Assembly: GCA_964421015.1 (NCBI GenBank)
Contig: CAYQUS010000002.1
Coordinates: 72,538 to 136,537 of the forward strand
Origin: an uncultured Planctomycetia bacterium
GTDB taxonomy: Bacteria > Omnitrophota > Gorgyraeia > Tantalellales > Tantalellaceae
Length of the DNA stretch: 64,000 nucleotides
Reading direction: 5' to 3'
Shown here: one piece after another, positions 60,309 to 63,300 of the stretch
How positions within the stretch are numbered: the first letter of the stretch is position 1
How the letters are laid out: each line of letters begins with the position of its first letter
Translations under genes and position numbers: made by a program
Notes under the pieces: generated by a model
The model's database searches: none
What the model was told of the DNA's origin: nothing
What the model saw: only the letters and a program-made list of their open reading frames with translations

Positions 60309-63300
60309 ATGATCATGAGAACCGCAGCGGACAAAGGTGCATGGAGAACTAAATTTTGGGCGGAAAAAGCGTTGGCTTTTTTTCTGGCGGGGCTAGTACT
60401 CTGTCCCGACGTTTCATTCGCCGCCGCAGAGTTCCCGGATGCGTTATCCGCTTCTTTGGCGACAAAGCCTATAGTAAATGTAACGAGACTACGGGGAGAA
60501 GAGTTCGTCATAGAATCCGCGGAGGGGAAAAGGCCCATGTTAGAAAAATGGGCGGTAAGGGAGATAGGGTTCCTGGTCCTGGAGGCTTTAGAACTTGAGC
60601 TTTCCCCCAGAACTCTTGAAAGCAGGATAAGGCAGAGTTTCCGAAAAAGAAAAGCGTCTTACCGGGATTATCCCGGGATGGTAGACATAAGGGCCATAAA
60701 TGAGATGTTTGACGGGAATGGAAAAAGAGACGGGTTCCAGGCGGTTATTGCCACGGAAGAACAGGAGGTCTGGAAGGTCAGATTCTCTTTTTCGAAGGAA
60801 GATGATTCAGAGATTTTTTCCAGAATAAACCTGAACGGGACAGAAAAAGAGGTTTACGTATCAGGCGAAAAAAATGACGAAGAGATAGCCGAAACCGGAA
60901 GTACGGGAGAAGACGCGATCGAAGTGCTCAGAACGATAGACAAGACCCCTGACGTTGTTATCTGGGACTGGGACAGGACTCTTTTTGAGACCAGTCTGGC
61001 GATAGGCGGCGCTGTGCATGAGGAAGTCCTGGCAGGGATCTACAGCCGGGCATATGGAGGGGACGCCGAAAGTTACCTCGAGCTGGGCAGAGAATATTTC
61101 AAGAACTCACAGGGAAAGACGAACGTAGAAAGGTACAGGGCGCTCATAAAAGAACTCGAAGATGAGGCCATGCTTTCTCCCGGAGAACTTGATCCGGAAG
61201 AATATGCCAGGATTACAAGAGAGAGGATGGAAAAACATGTAAGAGAAAGGCTGGACGCGTGGGAACAGGAAGCTTCAGTGTGTTTTGTCCCGGGCGCGAT
61301 CGATGTTTTAAGGGAGCTTTGGGCCGCCGGTAAAAAACAATATGTGGTAACGGGAAATCCCTGGCTGACGGAAGAGATACTCGGGAGGCTTGGCGTCGGA
61401 CATTATTTCGACGGGGTTTTCAGCGGACGGGCCTGGAAAGAAGAAGGGGAATATTCCAAACCGGCGGCATTTGAAAAGATAGCCCGGGACAACCCCGAAA
61501 GCGTTTTCATGGTGATAGGCGACGGGGCGGGAGAACTCGAATGGGGCAGACAACTTGATCAGAAACTGGGCCCGGGCCGGGTTTTTACCGTGGGGCTTTT
61601 GTATCCCCCGGGGAAGGAAAAATATTCTTCGGGAGAAAAACAGATGCGCGAGGCTTCCCCGGATGCCATTATCCACGGAGGAGTCTTCCCCGATGCCGGG
61701 GTTTTTTCAGAGAAGCTCGGTCTTGATGGCGAAGCCGGGGATAAAGAGGAAGAAGAAAACCGGCTGCCGGTCAGGGTTAATTCCTGGGAAGAAGCCGCGG
61801 AGACCGTCAACAAAGCTCCCAAGGTTAAGTACACGGAAGTCTTAGGATACCCGCATACTTCACATCAGTTCCGGGGGGTCAGGAAAGAGGGGTTTCTGGC
61901 CGCAGCAAAGACCGGAGAGATAAGAACGAGAAACAGCAGCGAAAGGACATGGTGGGCAGATCCGGTATCGGCTGTGGGCATCTCGAACAAACTTGATAAG
62001 GCCATGTATCCCGGGGGATTCACCCCGGGAAGTATTTCGATAGTTTTCGAAATAAAAGGAACGACCGCGGCCAAATACGGCATAGGTTCCTGGGGCGGGG
62101 GGACTTACAGCGCCGTGCCGCTTGGCGATATTTACAGGGCCTGGATGGTAAAGGTGGAGACCGAAGAAGATTTTGGTAACGGCCTTGTGAGAATGGCGGA
62201 GATAACGATGCCGGGGATGTCAGTTCCCGGTGCCGGGACAAAACAACTTTCTAAAGAGGCTGTCGGCACATTCTGGAGAATAGACAGATACCTGGAAAGA
62301 AAAAGAAATCGAGGGAACCTGGAGGCGCGCGAATATCTCAAAAACATCCCGATGAAAGAAGAAACGGCGGAAAGGGACAATCTGCGAGAACTTGTGGAAA
62401 AGGGCCTGCTCTGTTACGTTAAGCGTTCCCCGGGGGAAGAGGTGTACGATTTTACGGTCGAGGCGAGGTTCGCGAGGATACACGTAAAAGGAAGCATGGA
62501 CATAACTCCGGGAAGCGTGGCGAATCCCGATGTTCTGGCATACGACATACTTGCTATGATGGAAGGCTCCAGAAAAGTTTCTCCCGAGAAAATGCTTAGC
62601 GCAGTTCTTCATCTCACAGGGCAGTTCAGGTGGGAGAAAATATACAGGGAAGCTCTGGAATGCAGAAAACACGGAAGAGTCTGGAAGATCAAGGAAACAG
62701 CGGGGCTGACGGCTCTGCTTGACGGTATAGAGCCTTTGGAAAAGCGGACATTCATGGATACCCGGAGGATAGATGTAGGGGACATCGCGCACGACGGGAT
62801 AGATGCCGAAAAAACTGAAGGGGAGACGGAGGATTTTAAAGAAGCGGCAAAAACGGTTAACGATCTGGCCGCGGCCTCTCGGGAATTGGGAGAAGAGGAG
62901 ATCCGGGAGATACACGCCATACTCAGCAGGAACCTTACGGTAAACGATTTTTTCTCGCGAAAAAAGGCCGTTCAGAGAGGGAGGTACAGGGACAGAGAGG
63001 CCACAAGGTCCCTCGCCATCTGCCCTGTGCCGGAAATCATTCCCGAAGCCATGGAGGCGGCTCTCGGCCTTGTGAATTCGGCGGAATTCAAGAAGCTGCA
63101 CCCGGTGGAGCAGGCATCCATAGCGTTTTACATTTTCCATAATCTTCAGCCTTTCGAGAATGGCAACACCAGGACATTTTCTCTCTACATGAACTATATC
63201 CTGATGAAAAACAACTATCCCCCCCTTGTTCTGGATGAAAACAGTCTAAGGGAATTTCAGACCATTTTGAGGTTCATGAGAAAGCCCGAGCCGAAAACGT

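What the first reader, a model, noticed from the sequence alone, without database searches (positions are those of the whole stretch)
62890..63260. Fic/Doc-like domain with a non-canonical active-site motif (QPFENGNTRTFS instead of HPFx[DE]GNGRxxR)
Sequence landmarks of the Fido fold are present: IHAIL, GRYRD, a Pro-rich helix, HPVEQASIAFY, and the post-motif NYILMKNNYPPLVL matching the GYPP segment. At the position of the catalytic motif (63147-63173) the sequence is QPFENGNTR: His->Gln, Asp->Asn, second Gly->Thr, final Arg->Ser. A His occurs 4 residues earlier (FHNLQPF). This predicts either a pseudo-enzyme or scaffold Fido domain, or an altered chemistry. Known Fido variants such as AnkX (phosphocholination) and Doc (phosphorylation) show that motif changes can retarget the reaction.
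Basis: partly seen in the sequence, partly recalled or inferred. Interest (0 to 1): 0.65.

Follow-up and report, generated by a model that had tools for sequence, protein, structure and literature searches.

The report
Conserved histidine-less Fic domain, Omnitrophota protein
A real Fic-type enzyme fold sits inside a large secreted-looking multi-domain protein of an uncultured Omnitrophota bacterium, and its active-site loop (QPFENGNTRTFS, no catalytic histidine) is a strongly conserved variant rather than decay, so it probably binds a ligand or target, or does different chemistry, and is not a normal AMP-transferase.

Summary
Window 62889-63203 matches Pfam Fic above threshold and aligns to human FICD. 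That alignment puts QPFENGNTRTFS (63147-63182) exactly on HPFIDGNGRTSR, giving H->Q, D->N, G->T and R->S. An AlphaFold model (pLDDT 86) has the Fic helix-loop-helix active site and flap, and its 36 significant PDB fold matches (E <= 0.001) are all Fic proteins. No frameshift restores a canonical motif, and three independent assemblies carry the same sequence.

The domain is one module of a protein of at least 1,246 aa: signal-peptide-like leader, N-domain, intact-looking HAD phosphatase, unknown module, winged-helix-like plus Fic module, and a novel C-terminal domain. The organism is a Candidatus Omnitrophota bacterium. Relatives are 400-7,381-aa modular proteins.

The substitutions are conserved. 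A subfamily carries [H/Q]PF[E/D]NGNTRTxS, with Q in the clade of four large proteins that includes this one. The loop is the most conserved stretch of the module, and its codons vary only synonymously.

The site keeps the phosphate nest (G, N, first R). It has lost the base, the Mg2+ carboxylate and the gamma-phosphate arginine. I favour a non-catalytic ligand- or target-binding module (about 0.5) over altered chemistry (about 0.3).

G->T with loss of the last Arg, D->N, and H->Q were each described before as conserved Fido motif classes. This is therefore a new variant of a known kind, of moderate interest.

The parts
60297..64000 (+). Gene for the large modular protein. It runs off the window end. 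The full length is 1,246 aa from the TTG at 60372 (P0001), or about 1,271 aa from the ATG at 60297. The true start is uncertain.
   Evidence: The ORF is open from 60267 to the window end. P0001 is 99% identical and complete, and L001 is collinear with window 58324-64000 at 99.6%.
60297..60422 (+). Signal-peptide-like leader, MLKSMIMRTAADKGAWRTKFWAEKALAFFLAGLVLCPDVSFA. It has a basic n-region, a hydrophobic core, and small residues at -3 and -1 (S-F-A) before AAE.
   Evidence: The only hydrophobic stretch with a Kyte-Doolittle mean above 1.4 is here. The leader pattern ..[ST][DN][ILV][SC]FA followed by TLAPPLA[ST]KP recurs at the N-terminus of many homologues. Cleavage and export are inferred, not tested.
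60423..60971 (+). N-terminal domain shared with other members of the family; function unknown.
   Evidence: A local phmmer/HMM places it at the extreme N-terminus of P0002, P0008, P0010, P0013, P0034, P0005 and P0018.
60951..61550 (+). HAD-superfamily hydrolase domain with its catalytic motifs present (DWDRT, T-G, K, GDGAGE).
   Evidence: Pfam PF00702 scores 32.2 bits (cut-off 26.4) and PF12710 scores 30.9 (cut-off 27).
61737..62246 (+). Module A, an unknown roughly 165-aa module that recurs inside giant proteins.
   Evidence: It hits P0005 (5,257 aa), P0006 (2,614 aa), P0012, P0014, P0024 and P0063. There is no Pfam hit. A profile of the module has no PDB sequence match.
62199..63491 (+). The Fic module as a unit: a winged-helix-like subdomain, a helical region, the Fic core, and a long C-terminal helix.
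   Evidence: It is homologous as one block to P0002, P0003, P0004 and P0007. The AF2 model m7c77318f3695 has pLDDT 86.3 and pTM 0.85.
62253..62453 (+). Winged-helix-like subdomain (three helices followed by a two-strand hairpin).
   Evidence: Secondary structure of the model is H19-34, H43-47, H52-67, E71-77, E80-85. The assignment is by topology only and was not confirmed by a fold search of the subdomain alone.
62889..63203 (+). Fic core as matched by Pfam PF02661.
62937..62969 (+). Predicted beta-hairpin flap (LTVNDFFSRKKAV region).
   Evidence: Model strands E247-249 and E255-257.
63147..63182 (+). Active-site loop and N-cap of helix alpha5, QPFENGNTRTFS, at the position of HxFx(D/E)GNGRxxR.
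   Evidence: Gap-free alignment to FICD HPFIDGNGRTSR. The model shows helix 302-316, loop 317-322 and helix 323-337. In the Q clade 9 of 12 positions are invariant, with synonymous codon variation.
63534..64000 (+). C-terminal alpha/beta domain, truncated by the window end. In full it ends ..RRIYESQIFA.
   Evidence: It sits at the extreme C-terminus in 33 of 44 homologues and within 8 residues of it in 40. The AF2 model has pLDDT 95.3. There is no Pfam family and no significant PDB fold match, the best being E 0.019.

Best explanation
The region encodes a genuine Fic (Fido) fold. It is the core of a module of about 400 aa inside a protein of at least 1,246 aa from a Candidatus Omnitrophota bacterium. 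That protein has a signal-peptide-like leader, so it probably lies outside the cytoplasm.

The active-site loop QPFENGNTRTFS is a conserved variant, not decay. Asn for Asp, Thr for the second Gly and Ser for the last Arg are shared by a wider subfamily, [H/Q]PF[E/D]NGNTRTxS. Gln for the catalytic His is fixed in the clade of four large proteins (1,246-7,094 aa) that includes this one.

The loop keeps the parts that hold an alpha/beta-phosphate in other Fic proteins: the first Gly, the Asn, the first Arg and the helix N-cap. It has lost three things. These are the general base (His), the carboxylate that holds Mg2+ (Asp/Glu, although a conserved Glu/Asp sits one position earlier), and the Arg that grips the gamma-phosphate of ATP.

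I therefore conclude that it is not an ATP-dependent AMP-transferase. Most likely it works as a non-catalytic binding module. The phosphate nest and flap would dock a phosphate-bearing ligand or a target protein, and so position the neighbouring enzyme modules (HAD phosphatase, module A). This resembles the way the Bartonella BepC FIC domain acts by binding rather than catalysis.

Shown: the fold, the motif, its conservation and selection, the architecture and the taxon. Inferred: export, the binding role, and the absence of catalysis.
For: Fold:
- Pfam Fic scores 44.6 bits against a cut-off of 24.
- FICD matches at E 2.5e-13 with the single sequence and 9.5e-27 with the subfamily profile.
- The AF2 model has pLDDT 86.3 with alpha4-loop-alpha5 at the motif and a hairpin flap.
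- All 36 Foldseek PDB matches at E <= 0.001 are Fic proteins.

Conservation:
- Among 95 motif instances from the 150 best of 669 hits in 1.84 billion representatives, Q-P-F-[ED]-N-G-N-T-R occurs in P0001, P0002, P0003 and P0007.
- HPFENGNTRT.. occurs in P0009, P0011, P0027, P0039, P0050, P0109 and P0132.
- P, N, G, N, T and R are nearly invariant in alignment A1, whose mean column identity is 27%.
- In the Q clade 23% of columns are invariant overall, but 9 of 12 motif columns are. This is the most conserved 12-residue window of the module.
- Nearly every motif codon varies synonymously among five loci.

No general decay:
- The ORF is intact in three assemblies.
- The HAD motifs are intact.

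Residue roles come from crystal structures (PMC3667792):
- R(2) binds the gamma-phosphate.
- R(1) binds the beta-phosphate.
- Asn contacts the alpha-phosphate.
- D/E coordinates Mg2+.
- The backbone nest binds the alpha/beta phosphates.

Precedent for a non-catalytic FIC domain: BepC (PMC7842960).

Extracytoplasmic placement is suggested by the conserved leader.
Against: Strong conservation of the loop fits catalysis as well as it fits binding. The sister clade keeps His with the same N/T/S changes, so the variant pocket may belong to an active enzyme of unknown specificity, and Gln might support residual or base-independent transfer. Khater & Mohanty raised this argument for Gln-type Doc proteins (PMC4454073). 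No ligand, target or localisation was tested. The model coordinates could not be inspected, so pocket geometry is unknown. The signal peptide was judged by eye, without a dedicated predictor. The homologue sample was selected with a Gln-bearing query and comes from one search.
Confidence: 0.5

Rival explanations
1. The domain is an active enzyme with altered chemistry. The [H/Q]PFENGNTR pocket would bind a diphosphate-type donor with no gamma-phosphate to hold, as with CDP-choline in AnkX. It would transfer a group to a nucleophile that needs no histidine base, or use another base. The conserved Glu/Asp one position before the Asn would supply the metal ligand.
For: The loop is the most conserved stretch and is under purifying selection. 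The acidic residue at the 'x' position is conserved in all 11 subfamily members that cover the motif. The His-bearing sister clade shares N, T and S, so the pocket was probably shaped for a non-ATP substrate before His was replaced. Loss of the last Arg parallels AnkX, HxFxDANGRxxV (PMC3667792). His->Gln recurs in several separate Fic lineages (10 of 11 non-His first positions). It also defines a conserved Doc clade that its authors suspect is not dead (PMC4454073).
Against: The motif His is described as invariant and essential for catalysis in Fic/Doc proteins (PMC4454073). No experimentally active Gln-type Fido protein turned up in the papers I read, and I did not search for one specifically. 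Three of the four residues that handle Mg-ATP are changed at once. The protein looks exported, to a place where nucleotide donors are scarce unless it enters another cell.
Confidence: 0.3
2. The domain is an inert structural remnant. It is a Fic fold kept only as a spacer or folding unit in a modular protein, with no ligand or target binding at the old active site.
For: Four motif residues differ from the AMPylase consensus. Degenerate FIC motifs are common in effector families (PMC7842960). The protein as a whole evolves fast: 24-44% identity to the syntenic orthologue, against 50-97% for flanking genes.
Against: A relaxed site should drift. Instead 9 of 12 loop residues are invariant among proteins that are only 41-53% identical over the Fic core, with synonymous codon turnover at nearly every position. 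The non-His residue is Gln in 10 of 11 cases rather than a spread of residues.
Confidence: 0.1
3. The finding is an artefact. A sequencing or assembly error, or a pseudogene, hides a canonical HPFxDGNGR motif.
For: None found.
Against: The ORF is uninterrupted for more than 1,240 codons. The other frames give no motif. Three independent assemblies encode the same loop, one with a synonymous AAT/AAC difference. Diverged homologues carry the same residues.
Confidence: 0.01

Closest known systems
FICD/HYPE and C. elegans Fic-1 (class II AMPylases; PDB 4u04, 6i7g, 5jj6)
   Same: These are the closest solved relatives by sequence (E 2.5e-13 single, 9.5e-27 profile) and by fold (Foldseek E 4e-7). 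They share the same alpha4-loop-alpha5 site, the flap, the LHPVE helix and the ..NxILMxxGYPP helix.
   Different: FICD has HPFIDGNGRTSR and an inhibitory TVAIEG helix. Here His, Asp, the second Gly and the last Arg are replaced, and no (S/T)xxxE(G/N) motif exists anywhere in the protein. The domain context also differs: TPR plus a membrane anchor in FICD, against a modular Omnitrophota protein here.
Fic proteins with the Hxxx[D/E]GNTRxx[!R] motif (subset of clade F3 of Khater & Mohanty 2015, PMC4454073)
   Same: Thr replaces the second Gly and the last Arg is absent. The authors noted this as a conserved, possibly functional variant.
   Different: That class keeps His and Asp/Glu. The present subfamily has Asn for Asp/Glu, and this clade also has Gln for His. 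I could not obtain member sequences of F3, so I could not test whether the two groups are related.
Doc clade D2, Qx[F/Y]x[D/E][G/V]NKR (Khater & Mohanty 2015)
   Same: The catalytic His is replaced by Gln in a conserved clade, which the authors take to be under selection.
   Different: D2 proteins are single-domain Doc proteins with Lys at the Gly2 position and Asp/Glu retained. Khater & Mohanty describe the beta-hairpin as missing in Doc. The present domain has a flap, aligns best to FICD-type Fic, and sits in a multi-domain protein.
Bartonella BepC FIC domain (HxFxKGNGRxxR)
   Same: A conserved non-canonical FIC motif in a delivered multi-domain protein. It acts by binding (recruiting GEF-H1), not by catalysis, since a quadruple active-site mutant is still functional (PMC7842960).
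   Different: BepC keeps His and both Arg and binds ATP analogues. Only the acidic residue is changed. It has no detectable close sequence relationship (Foldseek E 0.045).
AnkX phosphocholine transferase (HxFxDANGRxxV)
   Same: Loss of the last Arg goes with a diphosphate-ester donor rather than ATP (PMC3667792). This is a model for the altered-chemistry rival.
   Different: AnkX keeps His and Asp. The sequence match here is only marginal (E 0.71 with the motif peptide).
Long or giant modular proteins of Omnitrophota (West-Roberts et al. 2023, bioRxiv 10.1101/2023.11.21.568195; bioRxiv 10.64898/2026.06.07.730766)
   Same: The phylum is the same. The protein carries a signal peptide, as 48% of the catalogued long proteins do. 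Enzyme-like domains are tiled along the chain, including HAD, methyltransferase and GNAT. Homologous modules occur in proteins of up to 7,381 aa.
   Different: This protein is only about 1.25 kaa, with no internal TM helices detected. Neither paper contains the word Fic. I did not find the shared leader, N-domain or C-domain described in the passages I searched.

Membership tests
Fido superfamily / Pfam PF02661 (Fic/DOC) | Match to the family HMM above the curated gathering score | tested here: met
   44.6 bits against 24, E 2.7e-11, profile positions 3-93 of 93.
Fido superfamily / Pfam PF02661 (Fic/DOC) | Helical core with the active site on the alpha4-loop-alpha5 element | tested here: met
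   The AF2 model (pLDDT 86.3) has helix 302-316, loop QPFENG and helix 323-337. All 36 Foldseek PDB matches at E <= 0.001 are Fic proteins.
Fido superfamily / Pfam PF02661 (Fic/DOC) | Signature motif HxFx[D/E]GN[G/K]R with invariant His | tested here: not met
   The loop is QPFENGNTR: His->Gln, D/E->Asn, G/K->Thr. F, G, N and the first R are kept.
AMPylating Fic proteins (HxFx(D/E)GNGRxxR) | Complete 12-residue motif, including the second Arg that binds the gamma-phosphate | tested here: not met
   Four of the eight specified positions differ, and the second Arg is Ser. Roles are taken from PMC3667792.
AMPylating Fic proteins (HxFx(D/E)GNGRxxR) | Inhibitory helix motif (S/T)xxxE(G/N), class I-III | tested here: not met
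   A regex over the whole 1,246-aa protein finds none. In the profile alignment an Asp (FMD) falls opposite FICD Glu234, but that stretch is coil in the model. An antitoxin-type partner in trans was not searched for.
AMPylating Fic proteins (HxFx(D/E)GNGRxxR) | AMP transfer from ATP to a target hydroxyl | not testable with these tools
   Needs biochemistry.
Fic 'GNTR' motif class (Hxxx[D/E]GNTRxx[!R], PMC4454073) | Thr at the second-Gly position and a non-Arg at the last position | tested here: met
   GNTR and Ser.
Fic 'GNTR' motif class (Hxxx[D/E]GNTRxx[!R], PMC4454073) | His at position 1 and Asp/Glu at position 5 | tested here: not met
   Gln and Asn.
Doc (HxFx[D/E][A/G]N[K/G]R, no flap) | Lys/Gly at position 8 and absence of the beta-hairpin flap | tested here: not met
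   Thr is at position 8, and the model has a hairpin at 247-257. The best relatives are FICD-type. A Doc chain scores only E 0.82 with the motif peptide.
XopAC/AvrAC effectors (NCBIfam NF041381) | Score above the curated cut-off | tested here: not met
   29.1 bits against a cut-off of 450. Only the Fic core matches.
Omnitrophota long modular proteins | Encoded in an Omnitrophota genome | tested here: met
   GyrB of the window is 86-87% identical to MAGs L006 and L065 and about 60% to many Candidatus Omnitrophota MAGs. It is 57% identical to Ca. Velamenicoccus archaeovorus.
Omnitrophota long modular proteins | Signal peptide or TM helices plus many unrelated enzyme-like domains on one chain | tested here: inconclusive
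   The leader is judged from hydrophobicity and conservation only. HAD plus Fic plus three unassigned modules are present. The length of 1.25 kaa is far below the 10-kaa and larger proteins those papers emphasise.

The most novel reading that the evidence does not exclude
The [H/Q]PF[E/D]NGNTRTxS domains may be a functionally new branch of the Fido superfamily. On this reading, the Gln form is a working enzyme or high-affinity reader with a chemistry or ligand not yet seen for Fic. One example would be base-independent transfer from a diphosphate-ester donor; another would be recognition of a phosphorylated or nucleotidylated target. The domain would be carried as cargo in a previously undescribed class of Omnitrophota exported proteins. 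Those proteins are capped by a conserved leader plus N-domain and by a novel C-terminal alpha/beta domain ending in QxFA, and these ultra-small, probably host-dependent bacteria would use them against other cells.
Probability: 0.25. Interest if true: 0.7.

Novelty: new variant of a known kind. Interest (0 to 1): 0.42.

Why it matters
Fic domains are a widespread toolkit for modifying proteins, and small motif changes are known to retarget their chemistry (AnkX, Doc). A clade that has replaced the catalytic histidine yet holds the rest of the loop under strong selection is a natural experiment. It shows what the Fic pocket can do without its base: bind, read, or catalyse differently. The setting adds interest. 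Omnitrophota are uncultured, ultra-small bacteria with suspected predatory or host-dependent lifestyles and extraordinary modular proteins whose functions are almost entirely unknown. A defined, foldable 430-aa module with a clear test (nucleotide binding, Q926H reversion) offers a tractable entry point. The claim is limited, because each single substitution has been catalogued before and non-catalytic FIC domains are known.

Tried and rejected
- The word-indexed protein search gave almost nothing: only P0001 with the whole protein, nothing with the Fic region, and two hits with the profile. The exhaustive HMMER search was needed.
- Literature search for the strings FENGNTR, PFENGN and NGNTRT returned no papers.
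- Compensating His at -4: rejected, because it is not conserved.
- Frameshift or sequencing error: rejected.
- Canonical inhibitory helix: none found.
- XopAC membership: rejected.
- Anti-phage defence context: PADLOC gave only weak generic Fic matches, and nothing for the CofD neighbour.
- A solved structure with an NGNTR-type loop: none ranked above FICD.
- Module A against PDB sequences with a profile: no hit.
- The C-terminal domain has no Pfam match and no significant PDB fold match.
- The metagenome pattern scan returned only three loci, one of them the same gene again, so it added no new Q-clade members.
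Full report
**1. What is in the sequence**

The frame containing 63147 is open from 60267 to the end of the window, at least 1,244 codons. The mechanical ORF list missed it because it runs off the end.

A 99%-identical complete protein, P0001 (1,246 aa), exists on a 27-kb Logan contig. That contig is collinear with window 58324-64000 at 99.6% nucleotide identity and extends about 10 kb further. A third assembly, L088 (ERZ795059), carries the same gene.

Pfam finds a HAD hydrolase (aa 219-418 of the protein started at 60297) and Fic, PF02661, at 44.6 bits against a cut-off of 24. 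The Fic match covers aa 865-969, which is window 62889-63203.

**2.

phmmer against all PDB chain sequences gives human FICD at E 2.5e-13. So His->Gln, Asp->Asn, second Gly->Thr and last Arg->Ser are correct, at 63147-63182.

The other two frames contain nothing Fic-like. The upstream His (FHNLQPF) is real, but it lies inside helix alpha4 and is not conserved in the nearest relatives.

**3. Fold**

I aligned the 431-aa module (window 62199-63491) with eleven homologous segments (A1). AlphaFold2 gave a confident model with pLDDT 86.3 and pTM 0.85. Its parts are:
- a winged-helix-like start, three helices plus a hairpin;
- a helical region;
- a beta-hairpin at 247-257;
- helix PVEQASIAFYIFHNL, loop QPFENG, helix NTRTFSLYMNYILMK, which is the Fic alpha4-loop-alpha5 active site.

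All 36 Foldseek matches to the PDB at E <= 0.001 are Fic proteins: FICD, Fic-1, BT_2513, IbpA Fic2 and others. The A1 profile hits FICD at E 9.5e-27.

**4. Whose gene, and what kind of protein**

The window is a bacterial chromosome around the replication origin. dnaA, gyrB, gyrA and yidC are present, and the GC skew changes sign near 30 kb. GyrB is 86-87% identical to two MAGs and about 60% identical to dozens of Candidatus Omnitrophota MAGs.

An exhaustive HMMER search of 1.84 billion representatives, using the C-terminal 755 aa, found 669 hits. It shows that the protein is modular.
- Module A (window 61737-62246) recurs inside proteins of 2,614-5,257 aa.
- The Fic module recurs in P0002 (1,700 aa), P0003 (7,094 aa), P0004 and P0007 (1,878 aa).
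- The last roughly 210 aa recur in 44 proteins of up to 7,381 aa. The domain is at the exact C-terminus in 33 of them and within 8 residues of it in 40.
- The N-terminal roughly 200 aa likewise recur at the N-terminus. They are preceded by a conserved leader: a basic stretch, a hydrophobic core ending ..SDISFA, then TLAPPLA[ST]KP.

In the window the leader reads ..RTKFWAEKALAFFLAGLVLCPDVSFA|AAE. This looks like a Sec signal peptide with small residues at -3 and -1. That is an inference, made without a predictor.

P0002 is the syntenic orthologue in a related genome. The shared order is starch synthase, methyltransferase, recN, cspA-like gene, [this gene], hisG ... ftsH. Flanking proteins are 50-97% identical between the two genomes. 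The shared modules of this protein are only 24-44% identical, and the internal modules differ: P0002 has no HAD but a second Fic-like domain, HAFNDGNHRTAD.

P0003 also carries methyltransferase, protein-kinase and acetyltransferase matches. This fits published descriptions of Omnitrophota long proteins tiled with HAD, methyltransferase and GNAT domains, most of them carrying a signal peptide or TM helices. Neither of those papers contains the word Fic.

**5. The substitutions are conserved, not random**

I extracted the motif from all 150 retrieved proteins, giving 95 instances.
- The Q clade reads QPFENGNTRTFS (this protein), QPFENGNTRTAS (P0002), QPFDNGNTRTAS (P0003) and QPFENGNTRMAS (P0007).
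- A sister group keeps His with the same other changes: HPFENGNTRT[S/A/D/T]S in P0009, P0011, P0027, P0039 and P0109, and HPFENGNTRTSW in P0050 and P0132.

In A1, P, N, G, N, T and R of the loop are nearly invariant, while the mean column identity is 27%. Within the four Q-clade sequences 23% of aligned columns are invariant, against 9 of 12 in the motif. That makes the motif the most conserved 12-residue window of the module. The only positions that consistently separate the Q clade from the His clade are the Q/H itself and one residue in KNNYPP/KNGYPP.

At the DNA level, five loci use different synonymous codons for almost every conserved loop residue: CAG/CAA, TTC/TTT, AAT/AAC, GGC/GGG/GGT, ACC/ACG/ACA, AGG/CGG and TCT/TCA/TCG. 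This is the signature of purifying selection on the protein sequence.

Among all non-His first positions in the sample, 10 of 11 are Gln. By nearest-neighbour identity they fall into several separate lineages, for example QPFEDGNKR and QPFGDGNKR next to HPFPDGNER. One caveat applies: the sample was drawn with a Gln-bearing query.

**6. What the loop can and cannot do**

Crystal structures of competent Fic-ATP complexes (PMC3667792) assign these roles:
- the alpha- and beta-phosphates are held by four backbone amides at the N-cap of alpha5;
- the motif Asn contacts the alpha-phosphate;
- the first Arg salt-bridges the beta-phosphate;
- the D/E coordinates Mg2+;
- the second Arg grips the gamma-phosphate.

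The motif His is described as invariant and essential for catalysis (PMC4454073). That it acts as the general base for the incoming hydroxyl is my own knowledge of Fic enzymology.

Here the nest, the Asn and the first Arg survive. The base, the metal carboxylate and the gamma-phosphate Arg are gone. A conserved Glu/Asp sits one position before the Asn in all 11 subfamily members that cover the motif. No (S/T)xxxE(G/N) inhibitory motif exists in the protein.

I conclude that canonical ATP-dependent AMPylation is very unlikely. If the leader does export the protein, ATP would also be unavailable unless the protein enters another cell.

**7. Most likely mechanism and rivals**

I favour a non-catalytic binding module, at about 0.5. 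A pocket that still recognises a phosphate or diphosphate group, together with the flap, would dock a ligand or target and bring the neighbouring enzyme modules to it. The precedent is BepC. Its conserved non-canonical FIC domain binds GEF-H1, and its quadruple active-site mutant still works (PMC7842960).

The main rival, at about 0.3, is altered chemistry:
- the N/T/S pocket arose in a His-bearing lineage;
- loss of the last Arg parallels AnkX, which uses CDP-choline;
- Khater & Mohanty argued that a conserved Gln-type Doc clade may retain function.

An inert remnant (about 0.1) is hard to square with the selection on the loop. An artefact is excluded for practical purposes.

**8. Relation to what is known**

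Khater & Mohanty 2015 (PMC4454073) already catalogued three conserved motif classes:
- Hxxx[D/E]GNTRxx[!R], with Thr for Gly2 and the last Arg lost;
- a Doc subgroup with Asp->Asn;
- a Doc clade Qx[F/Y]x[D/E][G/V]NKR, with His->Gln.

Each substitution therefore has precedent. I found no precedent for their combination, in an FICD-like (not Doc-like) domain with a flap, as a recurrent module of Omnitrophota exported modular proteins. No solved structure has a closer loop than FICD.

I class it as a new variant of a known kind. It belongs to the Fido fold and to Pfam Fic by HMM and structure, but it fails the signature-motif criterion and the AMPylase criteria.

**9. Limits**

Noticed in passing
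window 60297-60971 and 63534-64000 (continues in L001 to 5789); homologues P0002, P0008, P0010, P0013 and others: A family of 400-7,381-aa proteins is capped at both ends. At the N-terminus is a conserved leader (..[ST][DN][ILV][SC]FA, then TLAPPLA[ST]KP) plus an N-domain of about 200 aa. At the extreme C-terminus is an alpha/beta domain of about 210 aa ending ..Y..Q[IV]FA. Highly variable enzyme-like modules lie in between. The C-domain model is very confident (pLDDT 95.3), yet it has no Pfam family and no significant PDB fold match. It might be a sorting, anchoring or assembly domain.
   Followed up: partly
window 61737-62246: Module A is a domain of about 165 aa with conserved FRGV, WWGD..SAVGIS, VSIVFE and RAW..V stretches. 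It recurs inside giant proteins (P0005 5,257 aa, P0006 2,614 aa, P0014 3,758 aa). It has no Pfam hit and no PDB sequence match. The R / S / E-like spacing made me think of an ADP-ribosyltransferase-type fold, but this was not tested.
   Followed up: partly
P0002 aa 773-784 (L002, gene 10001-15103): The syntenic orthologue carries a second, different Fic-like domain with the motif HAFNDGNHRTAD. His and Asp are kept, the second Gly is His and the last Arg is Asp. It lacks the HAD domain. Internal modules are therefore swapped between related genomes at the same locus.
   Followed up: no
L001 5859-12092 (just beyond the window end): In this genome a 1,038-aa protein with a CofD/YvcK-type domain (PF01933, 52.9 bits), two response regulators, a 148-aa ORF and a PAS histidine kinase lie between the Fic gene and hisG. 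In the related genome (L002) hisG follows the Fic gene directly.
   Followed up: partly
P0025, P0028, P0065, P0105 (large proteins of 1,517-2,858 aa), P0126, P0134: His->Gln at the first motif position recurs in other Fic lineages (QPFEDGNKRVSK, QPFGDGNKRTAK, QPFHDGNKRAAS, QPFRDGNRRTAL and others). Their nearest neighbours have His. Gln accounts for 10 of 11 non-His cases in the sample, which suggests that Gln specifically is tolerated or selected.
   Followed up: partly
window about 26000-37100: Chromosomal replication origin region. yidC is on the minus strand (26156-27769), followed by dnaA (28754-30247), gyrB (31921-34476) and gyrA (34510-37023) on the plus strand. GC and AT skew change sign near 30 kb, GC content dips to 41-46% at 24-32 kb, and genes are co-oriented away from that point.
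   Followed up: partly
window 54471-55580: A 369-aa protein made of MORN_2 repeats (PF07661, E 6e-59) lies between tRNA-Gln and a starch-synthase-type glycosyltransferase.
   Followed up: no
window 60032-60118 (- strand): A tRNA-Leu(GAG) gene lies directly upstream of the fast-evolving modular gene, between it and the cold-shock gene. I did not check whether the tRNA is also present at the orthologous locus or marks a recombination hotspot.
   Followed up: no
L087 5837-8862: Next to the Q-clade protein P0007 lies a 1,008-aa protein with a Fic domain plus GNAT acetyltransferase domains and the same N-terminal leader. Fic-bearing modular proteins can therefore occur in tandem.
   Followed up: no
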